Shown in pieces: positions 6,501-54,500 of a DNA stretch of 64,000 nt. The position numbers and the translations under genes are program-made. Source of the stretch: Squalus acanthias (lineage: Eukaryota); assembly GCA_030390025.1 (NCBI GenBank), contig CM059426.1:74152001-74216000 (forward strand), read 5' to 3'. The first letter of the stretch is position 1; each line of letters opens with the position of its first letter. A model generated the notes under the pieces. That model saw only the letters and a program-made list of their open reading frames with translations. It was not told the DNA's origin and ran no database searches.

Positions 6501-9500
6501 ACTCTTGTGCAAAAATTTTTTTTAACACACTGGGGGTGAAAATGGGTTTGGGGCAATAACTTTTAAAAGTTTGGAAAATTAGCGCCAGGCGCTATGTTTT
6601 TCTAAATTTTAAAAACTTTGGTTTTCTCGCTCCAAGAGGGAGGTGGAGCGCTAAATCCAGTGCTCCACTTCCCTCTACGAGCGTGATTGGCAGCAGGCGG
6701 GGCAGTGAGTTCTGCAGCGGTGCACACTGGGCCGTGCAGCGCTGCTGCGTTGGAAGGCGCCTTCCCTCCCTTAAAGGGAAGGGCCCTCGCTGCAGGCTCT
6801 GCAAAAGGGCACCTACCAGGACCACCAAGGGAGCGACGAACCCATGATCGATTAGCCCGGCACTCAAGCAGAGTGCTGGGCTGATCGATTGCGGGCAGGA
6901 ACCCGCAAAAAAAGGATCAAAAAAAGTACTTTTTTTTTTAAAAACTTACCTCGGCCACCTCGCCTTTAAGCATCGCCCCTGAAGCTGCCGGTCACCTGAT
7001 GCACATCCCCTGAAGCTGGCGTTGTTTTCACCCAGCGATGCTTCAAGGGGCGGAAATGAATTTCGGGTCCGGGGTGATGCGCGGCCGGATGATGTCATGA
7101 TCAGATAGAGGTTATTGCCGCCGCAAACCGGCAGGTGAATTTCGCGGGCGGCGGTAACATCGCCGCGCCCGGGCGGTAATACCGTAGCGCCCTGTTATCG
7201 CCCCCCGGAGGCGATAACGGGAGGCGCCAAGGCACCAAATTTCTAGCCCATTTATTATTCCGCTTGGAATGCAATAAAATAGTGCACAGCGGAATTTCAT
7301 ACAAACATGCTAACACATTTGTTAAAAATACCCAAGAGCAATTTCACTCACACTGATCTGTAATAATGTGCAGTGTTCTCAAATCTTTTACATATTTAAA
7401 AACTAGCCTATCGCTCTTGCAAAATAAATAAAGTGAGTAGATCTCCTGCGTTGTAGCTCATGTGTAGCCTGGGACCTAGACCATGGTTTCTGGTAGATGG
7501 AAATTCAGATAATGCAAAATTTCTCCTACACTCTTGTTACTGACCTCCACAATAACAAACAATGACACCCTCCACAAACTAAAACTCATCCAAAAACTCA
7601 TGGCCCACCTTGTTACCAGCACTTAAGCACAAATCCCCATTACTTCTGTCCTTTCCAAGTTCCACTGGCACTCTGGGCCCAGAGAATTGAAAGATTCTCG
7701 TTGTCACCTTCCATTCTTACCACGTCACACTTTTTTGCCCCCCTCCTGCTCAGCATTCGCCTTCAGCTGAGCAGGAGGGGAGGAAAGGCATTCTTTTTGT
7801 TTTTATTATTCATTCACTGGATGTGGGCATCACTGGCAAGGCCAGCGTTTATTGCCCATCCCTAATTTCCCTTGAGAAGGTGATCAATGTTGAACCCCAG
7901 GATGTTGATGGTGGGGGATTCGACGATGGTGATGCCATTGAATGTCAAGGGGAGGAGGTTAGACTCTCTCTTGTTAAGAGATTGTCATTGCCTGGCACTT
8001 GTGTGGTGCAAATGTTGCTTGCCACTTATCATCCCAAGCCTGAATGCTGTCCAGGTCTTGTTGCATGTTTCATTATCTGAGAAGTTGCAAATGAAACTGA
8101 ATACTGCAATCATCTTTTGTCTTCTACTCAATCTATGAAAGTCAGGAATCCAGCAACAGCTGAAACACATTGGGAGGATATATTAGAAGGACCATCAAAT
8201 GAGACCATATGGGTTGAACTGAAGAACAAAAAAGGGGCAATCACACTGCTGGAAGTGTACTATAGACCATCAAATAGTCAGAGGGAGAATGAAGAGAAAA
8301 TATGTAGGCAAATTTCTGAGAAGTGCAAAAAAAAAGGGCAGTAATAATAGGGGATTTCAACTACTTTAATATTAACTGGGATAAAATCAGTGTAAAAGGT
8401 ATAGAGGGGCAGAATTCTTAAAATGCATTCAGGAGAACTTTTTTTAGCCAGTACGTAGTAAGCCCAACAGGAGAGGGGGTGGTTCTGGGCTTAGTTTTAG
8501 GGAATGAAGCTGGGCAGGTGGAAGGGGTATCAGTGGGAGAGCATATTGGTGGTAGTGATCATAATTCAGTTAGATTTAGCGTAGTTATGGAAAAGGACAA
8601 AGATAGACCAGGAGTAGAAGTTCTCAATTGGGGAAAGGCCAATTTTACTAAGCTGAGATGTGATTTAGCAAAAGTGGACTGGAGACAGCTACTTGAAGGT
8701 AAATCAGTGTCAGAGCAGTGGGAGGCATTCAAGGAGGAGATAGTGAGGGTTCAGAGCAAATATGTTCCCACAAAGAAAAAGGGTGGGACTCTCAAATCTA
8801 GAGCCCCCCCTGGATGTCAAGGGGCATACAAGGCAAAAAAAAAAGGACGCTTATGTCAGATACCGAGAACGAAACACTGCAGAAAGCCAGGAGGAGTATA
8901 AAAAGTGCAGGGGTGAAATTAAAAAGGATTAATCAAGGACAGTCAGCATGGATTTGTTAAGGGATGGTTGTGTCTGACTAACTTGATTTAATTTTTTGAG
9001 GAGGTAACAAGGAGGGTCGATGAGGGTAGCTTGTCTGTTGTAGTCTACATGGATTTTAGCAAGGCTTTTGACAAGGTCCCACATGGAAGACCTGTCAGAA
9101 AAGTAAAAGCCCATGGGATCTAAGGGAAAGTGTCAAGTTGAATCCAAAATTGACTCAGTGGCAGGAAGCAAAGGGTAATGGTCAACGGGTATTTTTGTAA
9201 CTGGAAGGCTGTTTCCAGTGGGGTTCCCCAGGGATCAGTACTAGGTCCCTTGCTTTTTGTGGTATATATTAATGATTTAGACTTCAATGTAAGGGGCATC
9301 ATTAAGAAATTTGCAGATGATACAAAAATTGGCCATGTGGTTTATGGTGAGGAAGAAAGCTGTAGACTGCAGGAAGATATCAATGGACTGGTCAGGTGGG
9401 CAGAAAAGTGGCAAATGGAATTCAATCTGGAGAAGTGTGAGGTAATGCATTTGGGGAGGGCTAACAAGGCAAGGGAATACACAATAAATGGTAGGATACT

Positions 9501-12500
9501 GAGAAGTGTAGAGGAACAGAGGGACCTCGGAGTGCATGTCCACAGATCCCTGAAGGTAGCAGGACAGACAGATAAGGTGGTTAAGAAGGCATACGGGATA
9601 CTTTCCTTTATTAGCTGAGGCACAGAATATAAGAGCAGCGAGGTTATGCTTGAATTGTATAAAACATTAGTAAGGTCACAGCTAAAGTACTGCGTGCAGT
9701 TCTGGTCACATTACAAGAAAGATGTGATTGCACTAGAGAGGGTACAGAGGAGATTTACGAGGATGTTGCCAGGACTGGAGAATTTTAGCTATGATGAAAG
9801 TTTGGATAGGCTGGGCTGTTTTCTTTGGAGCAGAGGAGGCTGAGGATAGACGTAAATAAGGTGTATAAAATTATGAGGGGTCCAGATAGAGTGGGATAGG
9901 AAGGACCTATTTCTCCTAGCAGAGAGGTCAATAACTAGGGGGCATAGATTTAAAGTTTTTGGTAGGAGGATTAGAGGGGAGTTGAGGATAACATTTTTCA
10001 CCCAGAGGGTGGTGGGGGTCTGGAACTCACTGCCTGAAAGGTTGGTAGAGGCAGAAACCCTCATCACATTTAAAAAGTACTCGGATATGTACTTGAAGTG
10101 CCGTAACCTACAAGACTATGGACCAAGAGCTAGAAAGTGGGATTAGGCTGGATAGCTCTTTTTCGGCCGGCACAGACATAATGGGCCGAATGGCCTCCTT
10201 CTGTGCCGTAAATTTCTATGATTCTGTGAAAAAAAGCTATCAGCCTCCTGGGACTGTATCAGGGGCAGAACAAAACATCCACTCACCCCATGGATGTGTC
10301 CTGACCCCGTCCAAAAATCATAGCATATTTTCGATGGATGCCTGCATTATTTTTCAACTGTGGCATTCACCTCAGTGGGGCAGGGATATCGCTATGGCAA
10401 CTTGCCACAGTGTAAGTGGAGACACCATGCTGGACAAAGGTTTTTTTTTTAAAATGGCAGTGCAATGTTTAAATTCCTTCCAAAGTGTGGACAGTTTTTG
10501 CACTTTCCTATTGCCCACATTTACTTGCCAATGGCAAAATGTCTATGCAAGAATGAAATACCTCATCAACTGCATTAACTTGTGCGCTTAGGCAGGAAAT
10601 GACTGCATCATTTAATTGAAGCTTGTGCTCATAAGAACATCAGAAAATTCTGAATGAGAAACGGTCATTCAGTCTATTAAGCCTGCTCCACCCAGAGTCC
10701 ATGATTGATTAATCTATGATGAATTACCCTCCTACACCACCTGTTAGTCTACTATTTTAGGCAACACTAATATCCTTCCTGATCATCTGTAAAAAAAAAT
10801 TAAGCAAGAATTGTTAGCTAGTTCACCAAGCCTCAATCCCACTTCTCAATCACTATCGACCCAACTCCTTTTTAAAGGTGCCAACTGACCCCAAATTAAC
10901 AACCTTTCCCGGAAGTTTGTTCCACAAAGCCACTATCACATTGCAGCAAAAAAGTTTTATTTTCTAATCTCGTCTTGCTCGATGCTTGTGCACTATTGTG
11001 TGTTGAATTCCATCTCATCCATAGACTCATCTTGCATCATGTCTCCCCACAGTTTTTCCCCAGCAGACATAAAATTATTCATTTGAGCCTCTCTTTATAA
11101 CCAAGGAGGAAAAATTGGGGTGTTAACTTCGCCGGGGCGAAAAATTAGCGCCCCCGCAGCCGAAATTCACCGGTAGCGCCCCAAGAGGGAAGCGGGGTGC
11201 TACCGGAAGCTACTGAATATTGCGGCGCGACCTGCCGCAGCGCCACGCCGGGTACTGCAGGCCTTCCTCCCCTTCTTAAAGGGGAGGGGCCTTGCGCAGC
11301 CTGGGCCACCAGGGATCGGAGTGCCGGGCTCACGGAGCGCAGCCGGCACTCCGCGGGAGGGGGGGGGGGGTGGGTGTGGCTGCAGAGGAGGCCGGGGATG
11401 GCAGATGGTGCAGGTGCTGGCAGGCGGTCAGCAACAAAAATGGCCGCCCGGCACCTTCCCTTTCATTCGCGCTGCCCTGGCCGCAGGTAGGCACCCGTGA
11501 CCCTGTCGGACATAGCGTCCGGCGGCAAGTCAGGGGGCGCTACCAAAGATCGCGGCCAGGGCGAGAGCGGGGCGCTGTGCATGGCAATGATGTCATCGCC
11601 AGTGGCGCAGCGCCGCGGGGCGCTAACCGTTACTGCCGCCGCTAACCTCCCGCTGAATTTTGCGGGAGGCGTTGGCGGTGCCACGTCCCAGGCGCTAGTT
11701 GCTTTGCGCCCCGTTAGCGCCCTAAGAGGCGTAAAGCAATCGAATTTTTAGGCCTAAGTGTCCTAGGGCTTGGGATCCTAGGGCTTGTCACTCTTTGTAC
11801 CCTTTCTAACGTATGTATTTTTTTTTGTTCTTCACAAAACATGATGATTACTTTAAAGCATGCTGAGGTGGCAGGACCAGAGAACATAAAAAAGGAACAG
11901 TGAAAAGTAAATTCAATAAAGATCTCAAGAAAATCCGGTTAATCAGAGTGATAAATATTTGGAATAGAGGCAAAAACATTGGGGTTATTCAAAATACAAT
12001 AGAGGCTATGCTGAGAGAATTTAAGTAGTAGAGGGTTGAGTTTAGCTGCGCCAAATAGCCTTTTTTTAAATCACTGACTTTTGAGTTCTGTCTTGTCAGC
12101 TCCTTCTTCTTTCTTTATGTTATTAAAGTATTAACTCTTAAATGAAGAAAAAAATGTGAAACGTGTTTGAACATACTGTAACAACCAGCTGTCCCAGAGG
12201 CGCATCTTCACTTATCACTGCCATGTATACATCGTGGCTAAATTTAGGAGTGTTGTCATTGATGTCTGTCACATTAATATTCACTGTTGCTACATCATTA
12301 AGTGAAGGTGTTCCACCATCCGTGACTTCCACTGTCAAATAATATTCATGAGATGTCTCAAAGTCCAGGCTTTCAAGCACAAAAATGGCACCTGATGAAA
12401 ACAAAATGGCAAATTAATAGAAAAGAGAAGAAAAAAATATACATCACACCAATGATCAGAAATTATGTAAAATTTCCTTCAGATTTTAACCTACTGAATT

Positions 12501-15500
12501 CTCTACTGTATTACTACTGAGCAAATGATTTTCAAATTTAGCTACAAATTATAAAATACCTGTATTTGCATCTATGCTGAACTTTCCATGTTCATTGCCA
12601 CTGATGATGGAATATGTAATCTCTGCATTGGCCTCAATGTCCCTGCTGGCTGCAAATATCTGAAGAACCTCAGTTCCCAAAGAAATATCCTCAGAAAGTG
12701 TGACTAGGTACTCTCTGTGCTCAAACACAGGCGGGTTGTCATTGATATCTAGCACAGAAACCAATACTGTACAAACGGACGATAGCTTTTTGAGAGCGCC
12801 TTGATCAGTGACCTTCACAGTAAGACTGTATGAAGCTTGGAGTTCCCGATCTAAAGGTTTCTCCAGACTAATGATTCCAGATAACTCATCAATGGAGAAG
12901 TGATCATCTGCTGAATCCACAAGTGAATAAAGTACCTTACGATTCAAGCCTATTTAAAATTAGAAGAAAAAAAGTTTCATCAATGTCATCACTTTAACCA
13001 TGAACAATAAAAAAGGAAATAATGCAGAATGTTTCCAGTAAATTGTGTTTACTGAAGTATTAAAATTACCTCCATAAAGTTAGTAATAGAAAATGAACAT
13101 CTTGCATAAGTTTAGGAATGCTTGGTCCTTAATATAATAAAATTCATAATTGTACTATCTTTTGATAGTGATATAAGGTATATATACACACGTATATCAG
13201 ATGAAAGGTGCTATAGTACATTATAGTTCTTTTTCCGTTGTTTATTCCTGAATGGAGTAAACAAATAAAAAGAACTGTAATGTAGTATTAGCGAACTGTT
13301 AGAATTGCACTGGACATTTTGTTTTTACTCTGAACATCTTATTTTTCAACAGAAACACCAGAAACACTTTTATATATGAGAACACTCTTCCCTTCTGTAG
13401 TAATTCATATATATTATTTACCTCGAATCACAATGGACTGCAAATAGTTTGAACACAACTGGTTCTGCATAAACTGTCACTGTTCTATCCTTTTTGTAAA
13501 AGTTACCAACATTTTTATCCCCATAGGCAGGCTACTTACTTTTGAGTGGCTCATTCCTTCATCTTTACCCATCAACCTGTGCAAGCAGACTGTTTACAGA
13601 AGATTTCCAAGCCTCCTACCCTGCACCCGCCCCCCAACCAGGTTCCAACACCAGGCCCATAATGCATCGTCAGAGGCCCAACTGGACAATGTACCCTCGT
13701 AGGTCCATCCTGGTAAATCGAGCTTCAGTGGTGCTGAATGCATTGCAAAGTTTCATACACAACCTTTTTTCTTCTCTAGCTATTTTTTAAGTATAAAGTC
13801 TATAACACTTTACAACAAAATCGTAACTTGAAAAATGGTGTTGGTTGGTATCCAAACTTCAACCTCTATGAGCCAAAAGTGACAACACTGCTTTGAACCA
13901 CAGAACATCAAGTCCTGGTGAACGAGACAGAATTATAAATTGTTCACTAATATGTATACAGACTGTGAGGTATATTTTTCTGTGTGTGTATAAAGGTAAT
14001 GGAACATTCTTTTACTAAATTATCATAATAAACCAATGACAGTTTAGTTAAAAAAATCCTTTATCTGGCTTGAGGGAAAATATTCCAAAATCTTTATTTA
14101 TATGTCATGGTTGGCGACCCTAAAGCTATATTTCATTATTAATAAACTGTAAAGATACAAGATCAGCAGTTATGCCACCAAGATAAATAATTTATATGAT
14201 GCATGTAGAGGCTTGATTGATAAGATTATTCATAAACTAATATCTTAAAATTTATTTTAAAATGTTCAAATTCCTTTTAGAATAACTACCGCTGAAATCA
14301 CTTCAACTTTACTGAAGAAAAGACCTAGAAAATTAACAATGTGGATAAAATCATTGTTGAATTCATCGTGCTGAGAAACATATGCTTAACAATGTATGCT
14401 GCATTCATGTAACTGCTATTGGCTTCACTGTTCCCTCAGCACTCAGCATGGATGATTCGTGTATAGAACATTACCATGATGAATGATTTGCTTAATTGCA
14501 CTGACACGATTGATCCCCTTTCTGCATTTTCACTAAAATTACCAGTCACATAAGAATATCAGCCTTATGTGAGCTAAAAATAACACTGTTGGTAAGGGAG
14601 TGTAAAATTTCTGGGTAATTGTTGTTTAGTCATACTAGAGATTCCCTTGTGAAACTGTCATTAAAAAAAAATCAAATAATGCTGCTTTAAAAAATTGGCA
14701 AGTTATAAAATTGTAAATCTCAGTTATAAATAACGTCAACAGTATCAAGTGTTACAATCACCAAAGGGGACCCCTACAGCTGTCATTCAGAAGGCCGTTA
14801 TACCTCTTATCTTTGGGCATCGGGATGCCGAACCTGCCCCGGCCTACTCTTCAGCTCGGGAAACATAAACTCTCAAAGTAGGAAGCCCCATCCATTCTGA
14901 TGCCACTGGTTTTCTGGTGACAGAGGCTCCACCCCTCACAAAACCGACCTCTAATATTAGGCATATCTGGGTTCCAGCCTGATTTCCAGTCCACTCTTGC
15001 TAGAGCTACAGCTCGAGTGCATTGAAAGGGCCAAGGATTTTCAAGCCCTATTTGTTTGCCTGGAGTACGATTGACTTGAATGGACGGAGCCCCAAATGAT
15101 TTTCCCCATGGGACAATGACAATATCCTGTTTGTATATGGAGGTGGAACAAATGATCAAGAATTGATGTGTTGCCATCTGCTATTCACCTTAAAATAACT
15201 CACAAATAATAGGAGTAGGTTATTCAGCTCCTTGAGCCTGTTCCGCCATTCAATTAGATCAGGGGTGGGCAATTATTTGGGCTGGAGGGCCACTTAAGTT
15301 TTGGTGAGCTGTTGAGGGCCGCACACCAATGTTCCCCCAAGGTCCCGCGCAGGCCGCTCACCAGCTCCTGCCACTGGAAGAGATACTGCGCCTGCAGTAT
15401 TGTTAAGTGGCCCTCCAGCCCAAATAACTGGCCATCCCTGAGTAAGAGCTTTTGAAACTAACCAGCTACATTTACACTGTCTTTGAAAACATACAGGGGT

Positions 15501-18500
15501 TACATGTTTGACTGTGCAGCTGGCTGTTTGTCATGGTGTTTGCAGTACCCCATGCAGGTATCCATTGTTTCTTATTTCGCTATTTGATTTCAAGGCTACC
15601 TCTGTGCAATGCTATCCTTGAAATGATTCAGCGCGCAAAACCCTTCGGCACAGTCCAGACACAACAGTAGTTCTAATTAGCATGAACTCTGACCCAGCAG
15701 AAATAAACCTACCTCACAGTCCCCCAGCTACAGCAAGGTTGAAATGAAGGGCCCTCCATTATGACAGAAACAATAGTGACCACAAAAATGATGGCAGATT
15801 AAACACGCTGCTCTATAACCAAAGAGGGCATGTGCAGTATCTATAATCGTGGGCCATTACCTGGAGTCCCTGTGCTCCGGGATCCACTCCAGTGTCTAAA
15901 GCGGCGATGAGAACCCCCTACCGTCGTACTCCGGGTAAATGGAGTTGCGGTACAGATCAGCCATGATCTAATTCAGTGGTGGGCAAAATGCGACCCATGG
16001 ACCAGATCCAGTCCGCTGGCCGGGACAGAAATAGAACGCAAGCCGGGAGAGGAAAGACACAGTGCTGATCTCCCTCTTTGGTAAGAGAGTCGTGGAGATG
16101 AGCAGCCATGTCTCAACTCTAAAATGGATAGGGCGTACTCGAGTACGCAGTGCATTCTGGGTACAAATGTCCGCCATTTGGGCCCAGAATCACGGAACGG
16201 ATCCTTTTAAAATCGGGCCGGGGAGAATTGCTTTTGCGAATTGATAAACTGAATTAAGTATTACTGTGTTTCCAGGCTGCAGTTCGGGTCAGTCTCTGAC
16301 CCACGAGAAGTGAAAGTGACTAATGTGCAGCTCGAGCTCCGGCTTGCATTCTATTTCTGTCCCGTCCAGCGGACTGGATATGGTCCGCGGGTCGCATTTT
16401 GCCCACCACTGAATTAGATCATGGCTAATCTGTACCACAACTCCATTTACCAGTCTTTAATCCATGGCCCTTGATACCCTTACCCAATAAAAATTTGTTG
16501 ATCTCAGTCTTGAGAGTTTCAATTGACCCAACATCCACAGCCTTTTGGGGAAGAGAATCCTACCTTTCTACTACCCTTTGTATGAAAAAGTACTTTACAA
16601 TTTCACTGCTGAATGGCTTAGCTCTAATTTTAAGATTGTGCTTTCTTGTTTTGAATTCCTCCACCAGAAGAAATGACATTTTTGTATCTACCCGATCAAA
16701 TCCTTTTTATCATTTTAAACACCCCGATGAAATCACCTCAACCATCTAAACTCAAGGGAATAGAAGCCAAGGTTATGCAACCTTTCCAACTAATTTAACC
16801 TTTTAGCCCTGGTATCATTCTGGTAAATCTGTGCTGCACCTGCGCCAAGGCCAATATATCCTTCCTGAGGTTTGGTGCCCAAAACTGAACGCAGCACTCC
16901 AGATGGGGTCTGACCAAGGCGCTGTACAACTGAAGCATAACTTCCTCTCCTTTGTATTCCAAATCCTTTAGATAAAGGCTAATGTTTTTGATTACGTTTT
17001 GTACCTGTGCATTATCTTTTAGTAATTTGTGTACCTGGACACAAATCCCTTTGCTCCTCCACAATTCCTCGCCATTAAGAAAATAATCCCTTTTTTTTTT
17101 GGATCCAAAGTTGATTAACTCACATTCCCCCACATTGAATGCAATCTGCCTATTTAATCTGTCTATGTCCCTTTGTAACTTCCTCCCCCATCCACGCAAC
17201 TTACTGTGCCTCCTAACTTAGTGTCATCTGCAAACTTGCATATACAACTCTTGTGAAGGCGTGCTATTAGCACAAGGACTGCAGCAGTTCAAGAAGGCCC
17301 ACAACTACCTTCTCAGGATAACTATGGATTTGTAATAAATGCAGCCATGCCACATCCCAAGAAAAAAAATGCTATCACTTTCGATTTACAGGAAGTCACT
17401 CCTGCATTAAAACAGTACTTAAAAATACATTAATGGTTTGACAAATCATCGACTATCCTTTATTTTTGAATATTGCTGTATTTTCTGAAATGCATTTACG
17501 AGTCAGGAGTTCTAGTTACTGTATTTACAACAGTGGGAAGTTGCATTTTCTTGATTTCTAAATAGGACTTTCATTGTAAAGTACATCTGGTAACATCTTA
17601 TAAATTTGCTTAGTTTCGGAGGACTGTGTTGTAACAAGAGTGGTTACTTACTACCACTGGAGTAAATCTTACCTGTATCTGGATCAGTGGCTTGAACTCT
17701 TGTCAGCAGTGTTTTATTAGCTGTGTTTTCAAAGACTGATACAGTGTAGGGATCAGATGAAAACTCTGGTGCGTTGTCATTCACATCCTCCAGTATTATA
17801 ACAACATCCGCCTGGCAGAAGCGACCTCCACCATCAGTGGCTCTCATCAATAGGTTATAAACTGCTTGCTGTTCACGATCAAGTGGAGCTAAAGTTTTCA
17901 ATTCACCTAATATTCAAGTAAAATACAAGTTAATTACAGAAATGCTTATTAAATGACAAGTTTTAAATTTTATGAATATTTAAAATTAATTTGGCTTTCA
18001 ACAGATTTTAGAACTCAAAAGCTTTTTAGCATTATATTCGCCAGTTATCTGATAAAGCCATACCATTTAACAAATTTATAATATATACCTAATAGTACCT
18101 AAGCTTTTGGCTTAGACGTTGCCATATACTTTCATTCCATAAATGATTGTAATTAACTTCCTGGAGACTGAGATTTACAGTAATATAAATCAATTCAACT
18201 GCGGAAACAAGAGTGTATCCTTGCAAAGTTTGGATGCACCCTTAAATGAGCATAAACTATGCAAAATAAACAAACGTATTGGCCTGGAATTTGCGGTCAG
18301 CGACAAAGCGTAGGCGCTCGCCACTGACCTCGAAGAAAGCTGCCCACAAAGATCTAGCCATCTCTGTGGCGTTGATTTCAGCTAACCCAACTTTTGTTTG
18401 AATCTGGCGTCAAATCAAGCGAATCTCCAGCGTCCAGCAGCAGTGATGTCGTCAATCTGGCTAGCAGCCAATCACATTGAAGAATTCTCACAGCAAGTAA

Positions 18501-51500: not shown

Positions 51501-54500
51501 ACACATGGGCATATTAAAATATTGGGCCGGCCACAAAAATGGTTTCGGCCTCTTGCTGGCGTTGATTGTTCTGCCTAGCGCCTGCGCAATGTGCACCACA
51601 CATGAAAATCTAACCCCCCCCCCTGTATTTTATCAACTGCAGATGAGGGGGGGAAAACTCCTGCCTTCATTATTTTTACTGGAAAAATTGGTATGACTAA
51701 AAGGTGGAGTTCCATGCTTCAAACTTCAGTAAAATTAGCAAAGACTGGAATTTCACCTACTGCAGCTTAGTTGCTCATATCAAAAGACAGCTGCTTTGGG
51801 TGTCTGCCAACAACTCAGACTATAAAACAAGCATGTTAGATCTTACTGCACACTGCTGATTGAAATGACTGAACTCTAATTGTGGCATAAATGAGTATTA
51901 ATTAAATGCCATTTTATATATTTCAATTTAAATTAATGCAACAGTTTTAAAACAAGAACTGAAACTTACACCAGCAGTTACATCTGCCAATGACACTGGA
52001 GGAATAACAGTGATGTTTTCCATCAGAAATCTTTGTTCAAAGCAACTATTTAATTGTGAACAGACTGACTGAAAATAATACAAAGAGAATTAAAAAAACT
52101 ATCGATGCTAGAAATTTGAAACAAAAACAGAAAGTGTATGTTACACACAGATCTATCAGCACCTGACTGAAGATGGATGATCATTTTGAGCAGTGACTCT
52201 TTGCCAAATGAAGGGTCTCCACCCAGAATGTCTTTTCCCTTTTCGGGTACTGATGAATCTGTATTTTCCATTTCAATTGCAGATAAAATAACTATAACTT
52301 CAAATTATGTTTTACACAGCAAATTTCTTGGATTTAATTTCAGTTTAGTTGAAGGGTTTCATGACCAGTCTGCACATATTGAATCCAACTGTCAACAGCT
52401 TCTGTGCATTCTACACTCTGCAATACCCAAGAGCTCTCAAGAATATAGAACCTAAGAACCTAAGAATTAGGAGCAGGAGTAGGCCATTTGGCCCTTCAAG
52501 CCTGCTCTGCCATTCAATAAGATCATGGCTGATCTTCTACCTCATCTCCACTTTCCTGAACGGTCCCCATATCCCTTAATATACAAAAATCTATCGCTCT
52601 CTGTCTTGAATATACTCAACGACTGAGCATCCACAGCCCTCTGGGGTAGAGAATTCCAAAGATTCACCACCCTCTGAGTGAAGAAATTTCTCCTCATCGC
52701 AGTCCTAAATGGCCGACCCCTTATTCTGAGACTGTGACCCCTGGTTCTAGACTCCCCAGCCAGGGGAAACATCCTCCCTGCATCTACCCTGTCTTTGACC
52801 TATTTCAATTTTTCCCTGATGTCACTTTACTCACTGATGCCTTATTACCTTTGTTACTCTCGCTGTCCCTTCCTGGCCCACTCTGCTTATTTTTACCCAA
52901 AACTCTACTCTGCCTTGACATTTCTCTCGCTGCTTTTAAATTTGTTTTCCTGAATCCTCCCACCCCCACTTCATTAGTTTAAAGCCCTGTCTACTGCCCT
53001 AGTTATTCAGTTCGCCAGGACACTGGTCCCAGCCCAGTTTAAGTGGAGCCTGTCCCAACGGGACAGCTCCCTCTTTCCCCAGTACTGGTGCCAGTGCCCC
53101 ATGAACTGAAACCCCTTCCTCCCACACCACTCTTTCAGCCATGCATTTAAATCTCTAATCTGTTTGTCCCTATACCAATTTGCACGTGGCTCAGGTAACA
53201 ATCCAGAGATTATTGCCTTTGAGGTTCTGCTTTTTAATTTGGATCCTAGCTCCTCAAACTCCCTCAGCAGAACTTCATTCCTAGTTCTACCTATGTCGTT
53301 GGTTCCTACGTGGACCACGACAACTGGATCCTTCCCCTCCCACTCCAAGTTCTTCTCCAGCTGCGAGGATATGTCTTTAACCCTGGTATCGGGCAGGCAA
53401 CACAACCTTTGGAAAACTCGGTCGCAGCTGCATAGAACAGTATCTATCCCCCTGACTATACTGTCTCCTATCACAACTACATTCCCTTTCACTCCCCCCA
53501 CTTGAATGGCCTCCTGTACCATGATGAGCTTGCTCATCCATCCTGCAGGTTTTTCCCCTCATCCACACAGGCAGCAAGAACCTCATACCTGTTGAACAAG
53601 GGCAAAGGCTGAGGCTCCTCCAGCACTGCACCTGGGGTCCCCTTACCTGCCCGAGTTGCAGTCACACCATCCTGCCCCTGACCACTAACCAGACCTGTAC
53701 CACAACCTAACCTAAGGGGTGTGACTACCTCCTGGATCAAAGTGTCCAGGTAACTCTCCCCCTCCCTGATGCCCCGCAATGTTTGCACCTCAGATTCCAG
53801 CTCAAAAACTGAGCTGAAGTTCCTCAAGTTGCAGGCACTTACTGCAAACGTGGTTGTCCGGGATCACAATGCTCTCCACAAACTCCCACATGCTGCAGTT
53901 GCGGCACACCGCCTGCACTGCCATCCCTATATCACCTTGTTTTATTTAATTAAATTTGTAATTAGGTAACTTAGTTTACAGTGTAGTTTCTTGACTATTT
54001 ACTTGATCTAGATTAAGTTAAAGGTACTGCAATTAAATATCTACCTGTAACAAAGAACACTACAAGTAGTGTAGGCAAAAAGCAACAACTCCTTCCCCCT
54101 CGTCTCCAAATTCCCACTCTTCCCAAATTCTCAAACAAAACACTCTGTTCAAGTCCACTCCGTTTAATCCCGCTCTGTGCTCTGCAGAAATATTTACTTT
54201 TAGACTTCAAAAATGTAATTTTTTTCATTTCCAGACACAAAGGCATTCAGGGCATTTTTTCAATTTACACTAAAAGGAGGTTGATTTTTCTTGTCCTTTA
54301 ATCCTTCTGCCTAACTCCCACCCCGGTCAACCCACATGTTCTATTCATTTTATTAAAACAGCCAAATATTTTACTGAACAGTAGGAAACAAGCTAGAACA
54401 GACACATGAGCAAATTATATGAAGTAATCACATTCTGGATAGATACTACCCACCATGATGTATCTCATATTGGTCAATAACCATTTATATAGTGAACAAA

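What the first reader, a model, noticed from the sequence alone, without database searches (positions are those of the whole stretch)
15252..16451. Composite hAT insertion with both ends duplicated in inverted orientation plus an inverted copy of its own target flank
Seen: one 8-bp TSD (AATTAGAT) brackets 15260-16411. The internal order is left end L (15260-15297), inverted L (15403-15440, 38 bp, 3 mismatches), about 490 bp of unidentified DNA, an inverted copy of about 40 bp of the host CR1 right flank including the TSD (15934-15973), inverted right end R (15974-16046), and R (16340-16411). The fold-back arms 15934-16046 and 16340-16451 differ at about 7 of about 113 positions and run past the transposon end into host DNA. 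Established: hAT elements make 8-bp TSDs, and maize Ac/Ds alternative (reversed-end or sister-chromatid) transposition yields composite insertions with inverted flank duplications. Inference: this is a fossil of such an event, or of fold-back repair after insertion, in a vertebrate intron. Simple nesting of two MITEs would not duplicate the host flank.
Basis: partly seen in the sequence, partly recalled or inferred. Interest (0 to 1): 0.7.

Follow-up and report, generated by a model that had tools for sequence, protein, structure and literature searches.

The report
Cargo transposon with a fold-back scar
This is one of about 45 copies of a small cut-and-paste transposon that carries the first exon of the housekeeping gene TPP2 plus 400 bases traced to another chromosome, and only this copy has an extra 105-base backward copy of its own end and neighbouring DNA, likely a later repair scar rather than a product of transposition.

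Summary
L-L'-X-Y-R is the normal build of a subfamily of at least 45 loci with their own 8-bp TSDs. Only 105 bp (15938-16042) are private: an inverted copy of 16343-16447, with 4-nt microhomology at both junctions, no deletion, no new TSD and neither junction at a transposon end. It also stands in a second individual and in related species and is probably younger than the insertion. That fits a local template switch, not alternative transposition. The family is a multicopy Pack-hAT carrying TPP2 exon 1, whose intact donor gene I located; this scan noted the TPP2 cargo before on other DNA (e1-9140430, e1-7806527). New here: the 400-bp X cargo traces to one locus on C19 and abuts the inverted left terminus exactly. 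So the subfamily founder likely folded its own left end and flank into itself before spreading, the same geometry as the private scar. New variant of a known kind; interest 0.42.

The parts
15252..15259 (.). left target site duplication AATTAGAT
15260..15394 (+). hAT left end and subterminal region, shared with the parent family
15395..15400 (.). short fold-back filler at the subfamily-founding junction
   Evidence: subfamily versus parent consensus
15400..15440 (-). L': inverted copy of the first 41 nt of the left end; one TIR base changed in most copies; subfamily-wide
15441..15743 (+). cargo piece 1, from G000:C19:26733883-26734198; begins exactly at the L' terminus
   Evidence: 96.2% to subfamily consensus over 316 nt
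15739..15829 (+). cargo piece 2, from G000:C19:26737438-26737528, 3.24 kb beyond piece 1; TGAA microhomology
   Evidence: 96.7% over 91 nt
15829..15842 (-). 14-nt inverted copy of the inner end of L; subfamily-wide
15843..15860 (-). start of TPP2 intron 1, with the 5' splice site intact in this copy
15861..15937 (-). TPP2 exon 1, 3' part
15938..16042 (-). private 105-nt inverted insertion, copied from 16343-16447 (host flank, TSD, right end, TPP2 upstream piece); microhomologies GGTA 15934-15937 and CCGG 16043-16046
   Evidence: absent in 17 of 17 aligned copies; no other locus spans its junctions among 40 scored of 762 candidates
16043..16119 (-). TPP2 exon 1, 5' part (start codon at 16109-16107; internal deletion breaks the frame) and the bases just upstream
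16120..16319 (.). 200-nt piece set into the TPP2 upstream sequence in part of the family; donor not found
16320..16372 (-). sequence upstream of the TPP2 start codon
   Evidence: 52 of 53 identical between consensus and TPP2 gene
16369..16411 (+). hAT right end (GCGG microhomology with the TPP2 piece; one 22-nt repeat unit lost)
16412..16419 (.). right target site duplication AATTAGAT
16339..16451 (+). template of the private insertion, microhomologies included

Best explanation
The element is a normal copy of a roughly 45-member non-autonomous hAT subfamily loaded with host DNA, and its one private feature, a 105-base inverted copy of its own right end and flank, was likely written by a microhomology-guided template switch well after insertion and likely without transposase. 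Layers: (1) shown: a hAT MITE carries about 475 bp of TPP2 (upstream sequence, exon 1, start of intron 1) and spread to at least about 150 sites. (2) Shown: some copies gained a 200-bp piece. (3) Shown: one branch replaced most of the intron part with a fold-back filler, inverted L, two pieces of one C19 locus and 14 nt of inverted L, then transposed to about 45 sites. Inferred: its founder sat at that C19 site and copied its own left end and flank backwards into itself. (4) Shown: this copy gained the 105 bp with no loss. Inferred route: a break at GGTA^CCGG; the resected right end snaps back on the CCGG about 300 nt away, copies 105 nt plus TACC, unwinds and anneals to GGTA on the left end. 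An inter-strand switch at a fork (four-point type 1-4-3-2) gives the same sequence; I put snap-back repair slightly ahead (about 55:45). No function is indicated.
For: Subfamily: 17 of the first 17 full L-L' hits continue into X; of 41 matches to the L-L' junction motif (control 2), 34 were elements and all 34 carry X, 7 had no element; 45 distinct loci; 18 of the 28 TSD-bearing elements listed are of this subfamily (list kept only pairs with at most 2 mismatches). Private insertion: clean, 4-nt microhomology on both sides, absent from 17 of 17 copies. Cis template: both arms share six substitutions and a 22-nt deletion against the consensus; two of them occur in 0 of 16 and 0 of 26 other copies. 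Age: copies lie 7.1% from consensus (this one 74 of 1043), closest pair 9.3%; arms differ at 7 of 113 against 16 expected if copied at insertion (P = 0.01; 3.1% per arm, 1.3-6.3). Organism D (22 differences in 360 nt of flank) has a contig across 15951-16167, and lacks 3 of the 4 changes private to R'. TPP2: PDB 3lxu E = 4e-10; intact exon at C7:79129345-79129470 without transposon ends, exon 2 8.4 kb on; 150 of 150 scored hits of 476 candidates, two being real genes. C19 donor: both ends of the match fall on the cargo boundaries, no family end within 65 kb, junction at the L' terminus without microhomology.
Against: One of the two strictly private shared sites (16001/16384) is contradicted: the D contig and a short C contig show the consensus base at 16001 (201 rows of that table were not shown). 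Arm-to-arm conversion occurs in this family: L036 has L' extended to a 93-nt arm, and 4 of 34 copies have the changed L' TIR base restored. So the late date could be a conversion date. No allele of this locus without the insertion was shown: organism G has a joint 15937-16044, which any family copy could give. Snap-back products in the passages read use primers within tens of bases of the break (PMC5728401), far less than here. The C19 site holds no element today, and its 8-mer scores at the 94th percentile of background, near the low end of real TSDs. No autonomous partner or transposase was found, so activity at the time of the private event is not excluded.
Confidence: 0.68

Rival explanations
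1. The inverted copy was made early, during transposase-linked gap repair at or soon after insertion, and the arms were homogenised later by conversion.
For: Conversion between inverted arms is seen in the family (L036; 4 of 34 restored TIR bases); site 16001 disagrees in relatives; the founding event of the subfamily had the same geometry while the family was active.
Against: Needs conversion of nearly the whole arm shortly before the A/D split; only 1 such whole-arm event was seen in the family loci scanned; no deletion at the junction, whereas repair after excision is expected to leave larger gaps near the ends (PMC8277862 section 8).
Confidence: 0.22
2. One reading: one alternative (reversed-end or sister-chromatid) transposition built the composite at this site.
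For: Internal inverted ends with attached flank exist in maize composite insertions, whose two segments can be joined at a 4-bp microhomology (PMC4270019, passages).
Against: The left half is family-wide; the private junctions lie 40 nt outside and 73 nt inside the end; the only TSD is the original one; no flanking deletion or duplication is needed, the host repeat is collinear across the site.
Confidence: 0.05
3. Independent L-L' and R'-R MITEs nested together, with a separate LINE fragment between them.
For: Both sub-units have MITE-like ends; other family members sit at the same host-repeat site (L132, L161).
Against: 0 of 34 L-L' junctions stand without X; no second R'-Y junction among 40 scored of 762 candidates; the inverted piece runs on from R' through the TSD and shares this copy's changes.
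Confidence: 0.02
4. Assembly artefact.
For: Long inverted repeats can be mis-joined (general knowledge).
Against: Arms differ at 7 sites; a second sample from another study has a contig over 16007-16134 with 2 differences; D has one over 15951-16167; B and C contigs cross 15937 by 24 nt, under the tool's 31-nt bar.
Confidence: 0.01

Closest known systems
Pack-TIRs of animals (Tan et al. 2021, PMC8277862; abstract and sections 7-9 read, supplements searched)
   Same: TIR element with host DNA inside; microhomology at junctions; the private event fits their single-copy class (cis donor under 5 kb, small or no gap, after transposition); the subfamily fits their multicopy class (FoSTeST, distinct TSDs, no element left at the donor).
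   Different: They report 4 multicopy cases among 281, the example having 3 copies, and 0 Pack-TIRs in elephant shark; here about 45 and at least about 150 copies, four stacked captures, and two captures that include the element's own end in inverted orientation.
Short template switch, four-point type 1-4-3-2 / 3-2-1-4 (Loytynoja and Goldman 2017, PMC5453318; passages)
   Same: Reverse-complement copy of nearby DNA creating a new inverted repeat; the type made up 31% of their human-chimp events; a few identical bases suffice at the switch points.
   Different: Their events are short and outside masked repeats; this one is 105 nt with a template 300-400 nt away, inside a transposon.
Snap-back synthesis-dependent MMEJ (PMC5728401; passages)
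   Same: Primer repeat (CCGG), limited synthesis, new microhomology (TACC/GGTA) joining the other end; insertion becomes part of a longer inverted repeat.
   Different: Distances and lengths in the passages read are much smaller; no polymerase can be assigned to a fossil.
Ac/Ds composite insertions (Zhang et al. 2014, PMC4270019; passages)
   Same: hAT ends with duplicated flank; internal microhomology junction.
   Different: Those need two nearby elements, a new target with its own 8-bp TSD and kilobase segments; none of this is seen for the private event.
Buster-family hAT MITEs (TSD consensus nnnTAnnn; PMC3517528, passages)
   Same: 8-bp TSD with central TA (0.82 / 0.82 in 28 elements), short TIRs.
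   Different: No transposase was found to place the family in a tree.

Membership tests
hAT superfamily, non-autonomous | 8-bp TSD and short TIRs | tested here: met
hAT, Buster family | target consensus nnnTAnnn | tested here: met
   against PMC3517528
hAT, Buster family | Buster-clade transposase in an autonomous partner | tested here: inconclusive
   no transposase recognised by eye among ORFs of 19 family loci; no genome-wide transposase search was run
multicopy Pack-TIR | internal non-TE sequence with an identified host donor | tested here: met
   TPP2 gene on C7; C19 locus; 200-bp piece has no donor yet
multicopy Pack-TIR | several copies with distinct TSDs | tested here: met
single-copy gap-fill Pack-TIR event (private 105 bp) | cis donor, junction microhomology, small gap | tested here: met
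single-copy gap-fill Pack-TIR event (private 105 bp) | orthologous element without the filler in an outgroup | tested here: inconclusive
   B, C, D carry the insertion; the joint in G cannot be assigned to this locus
alternative-transposition composite insertion | transposase-made junction of a terminus to a new target with a new 8-bp TSD | tested here: not met
   private junctions are off the termini; one TSD only
alternative-transposition composite insertion | structure unique to the locus, made from two nearby elements | tested here: not met
   left half in 45 loci; no second family copy near the site in the window (one search covers 15000-16700 against the window)
four-point template switch 1-4-3-2 | fragment copied in reverse complement, return at or after the exit point | tested here: met
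   definition
snap-back SD-MMEJ | dependence on a break and on polymerase theta | not testable with these tools
   fossil event

The most novel reading that the evidence does not exclude
These hAT elements load cargo in cis by folding a copy of their own end plus the adjoining host flank backwards into their interior. The internal inverted TIR then records a vanished insertion site (here on C19), the outer pair of ends carries the package away, and the same move happened twice in one lineage, once at each end. This would be a recognisable route to multicopy Pack-TIRs in vertebrates, searchable by internal inverted ends.
Probability: 0.3. Interest if true: 0.65.

Novelty: new variant of a known kind. 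Interest (0 to 1): 0.42.

Why it matters
The locus is a readable four-step history of how a vertebrate cut-and-paste element collects host DNA, with two donors found in the same genome and junctions resolved to the base. Multicopy Pack-TIRs are rare in the published survey (4 of 281, PMC8277862 section 7), so families of 45 and 150-plus copies are useful test material for the gap-fill and FoSTeST models. The copies scatter a start codon, exon and 5' splice site of TPP2 through the genome; here the splice site lies in the sense of the host cadherin gene, a possible substrate for exonisation (untested). The private scar alone is ordinary.

Tried and rejected
Alternative transposition, nested MITEs and misassembly: see rivals. 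L132 as a duplicate holding the simple allele: rejected, only the host repeat matches beyond the element. L168 as a copy that lost L-L' by excision (my first reading): rejected once piece 2 was found 3.24 kb on, with both cargo boundaries matching. The 3.24-kb gap as an intron, i.e. capture from spliced RNA: rejected, it ends in ATCAAA and has no acceptor on either strand. Protein identity for cargo X: none (Pfam; PDB). Donor of the 200-bp piece: not among 30 loci fetched of 40 scored of 222 candidates. TPP2 exon 1 within 400 kb upstream of the C7 domain exons: not there; it lies 1.8 Mb further on, beyond an assembly gap. The C6 paralogue is not the donor (61% protein, no DNA match). A direct search for a parent-type element still attached to the X flank was not obtained, so such a copy is not excluded. 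Recurrence of end-plus-flank inversions: 131 locus records (redundant, two tandem-array records left out, arms over 46 nt only) gave this locus and the L036 arm extension, no other case. Expression: no RNA holder listed, no evidence either way. Organisms E and F: no informative piece. Print: 'TPP2 / DNA transposon / captured exon / shark' 0 papers with 3 of 4 terms; searches gave no description of this family (listings seen); TPP2 absent from 12 supplementary files of PMC8277862. Repbase/Dfam were not available. PMC3814204: abstract only, not used.
Full report
Observation. All described features are present: the TSD, the 38-nt L/L' pair and the 113-nt arms at 94% that run 40 nt into the host repeat. 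The element lies between two cadherin exons on the minus strand.

What is family-wide. Searches of the own genome with three parts of the element hit the same loci in the same order: 17 of the first 17 full L-L' hits continue into X. A motif across the L-L' junction gave 41 matches (control 2); 34 were elements and all 34 carry X, 7 had no element. Merged coordinates give 45 loci, a lower bound. Eighteen of the 28 TSD-bearing elements are of this subfamily, each with its own TSD; that list kept only pairs with at most 2 mismatches. The TSD profile is nnnTAnnn, the Buster signature (PMC3517528, passages). So L...R moved as a unit with L' and X inside, and no free L-L' was seen.

What is private. 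Against 17 aligned copies the window has one extra block of 105 nt between GGTA and CCGG, with nothing lost. It is the reverse complement of 16343-16447, and both 4-mers also stand at the ends of the template. One junction is 40 nt outside the right terminus, the other 73 nt inside; there is no new TSD. No other locus spans the junctions among 40 scored of 762 candidates. Contigs from a second sample (16007-16134, 2 differences) and from organism D (15951-16167) bridge the right junction; contigs of B and C cross the left one by 24 nt, short of the tool's 31-nt bar. It is real and older than these species.

Timing. Thirty-five other copies average 7.1% from the consensus, the closest pair is 9.3% apart, and this copy is at 7.1%: one old burst. 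The arms differ at 7 of 113 sites against 16 expected if copied at insertion (P = 0.01), and share six substitutions and a 22-nt deletion; four of the six, and the deletion (2 other aligned copies), recur elsewhere, two are seen in 0 of 16 and 0 of 26 copies. D lacks three of the four changes private to R', so the arms were nearly identical near the A/D split. Against this: D and a short C contig show the consensus base at 16001, one of the two private shared sites; that table hid 201 rows; and arm conversion occurs in the family (L036; 4 of 34 restored L' bases). I put a late origin at about 70%. Organism G shows a joint without the insertion, but it cannot be tied to this locus.

Mechanism of the private event (inferred). 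One break at GGTA^CCGG explains every base: the right end snaps back on a CCGG about 300 nt away, copies through the right terminus, TSD and flank to TACC, then anneals to GGTA. This is the snap-back scheme of PMC5728401 (passages) at a larger scale. An inter-strand fork switch of type 1-4-3-2 (PMC5453318, passages) gives the same product. That the template spans the terminus need not be special: by my rough estimate a 113-nt template within a few hundred bases of the break would do so about one time in ten. Maize composite insertions (PMC4270019, passages) need a terminus joined to a new target, which is absent.

The cargo. Translations of family copies match the N-terminus of tripeptidyl-peptidase 2 (PDB 3lxu, E = 4e-10). 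A protein search matched 150 of 150 scored places of 476 candidates, two being real genes. C7:79129345-79129470 is the donor: intact reading frame, splice donor, no transposon ends, exon 2 8.4 kb away; the consensus matches it at 110 of 114 (exon), 52 of 53 (upstream) and 221 of 234 (intron). The private insertion splits this exon, and both CCGG words are TPP2-derived. I found this before looking up earlier notes; two of them describe the same cargo on other DNA of this genome (unchecked AI notes). A 200-nt piece in part of the family has no donor yet.

The founding of the subfamily. Compared with the parent type, the subfamily has L, a short fold-back filler, L 41 to 1 inverted, 400 nt of X, 14 nt of inverted L, and a return to TPP2 intron 1. 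X matches one locus in two pieces, C19:26733883-26734198 (96.2%) and 26737438-26737528 (96.7%), joined at TGAA; no family end lies within 65 kb, and the gap is not an intron. The first piece starts at the exact L' terminus with no microhomology, as a transposase-made junction would. I infer that the founder sat at C19 and copied its own left end and flank backwards by several switches, as in the FoSTeST model (PMC8277862 section 9), and then spread. The site is empty now and its 8-mer is only a fair target (94th percentile), so this step stays inferred; an alternative-transposition step is not excluded for this earlier event.

Novelty. Each ingredient is known: Pack-TIRs, template switches, snap-back repair. 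I found no description of this family (listings) or in 12 supplementary files of PMC8277862; repeat databases were not available, and supplements of preprints could not be seen. The copy numbers exceed the published multicopy cases, and the end-plus-flank geometry appears twice in one lineage, but a scan of 131 redundant locus records found no third case, and unchecked notes of this scan report inverted flank copies at other element types in this genome. Verdict: new variant of a known kind; interest 0.42.

Noticed in passing
L132 (C1:240548320), L161 (C10:92120109), window 15252: Independent family insertions at the same position of the abundant host repeat: a target hotspot.
   Followed up: partly
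L036:1306-1497 (C11:95914434): The L-L' unit was turned into a near-perfect palindrome with 93-nt arms, restoring the L' TIR: a second template switch in the subfamily.
   Followed up: partly
L172:779-3049 (C9:3584278-3586548): A copy holding nested inverted right ends and a 2.2-kb minisatellite of the 22-nt right-end repeat.
   Followed up: partly
G000:C7:77247000-77330200 and C7:79120827-79129470: TPP2 exons 1-2 lie 1.8 Mb from the later exons, with a 200-N gap at 77341619 and a long CpG-rich array between: possible misassembly.
   Followed up: partly
G000:C6:130982920-131079164: A second, diverged TPP2-like gene; its exon 1 is preceded by a short tandem repeat.
   Followed up: no
window 16120-16319: The 200-nt piece has motifs that look like ZNF143 and YY1 sites (recalled, untested), so it may be another gene's promoter.
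   Followed up: partly
L168:1323-1515 and C19 about 26737000-26737200: Two hairpin-shaped repeat insertions of about 190 nt near the donor locus.
   Followed up: no
L065, L067, L068, L070, L078, L086: Another branch of the TPP2-bearing family with different extra internal sequence; not identified.
   Followed up: no
L125, L138, window 16380: Repeated loss of one 22-nt unit between direct repeats in the right end.
   Followed up: partly
window 53010-53558 (-) and 9154-9615 (+): ORFs with GDSL esterase and reverse transcriptase Pfam hits, as expected of LINE fragments.
   Followed up: no
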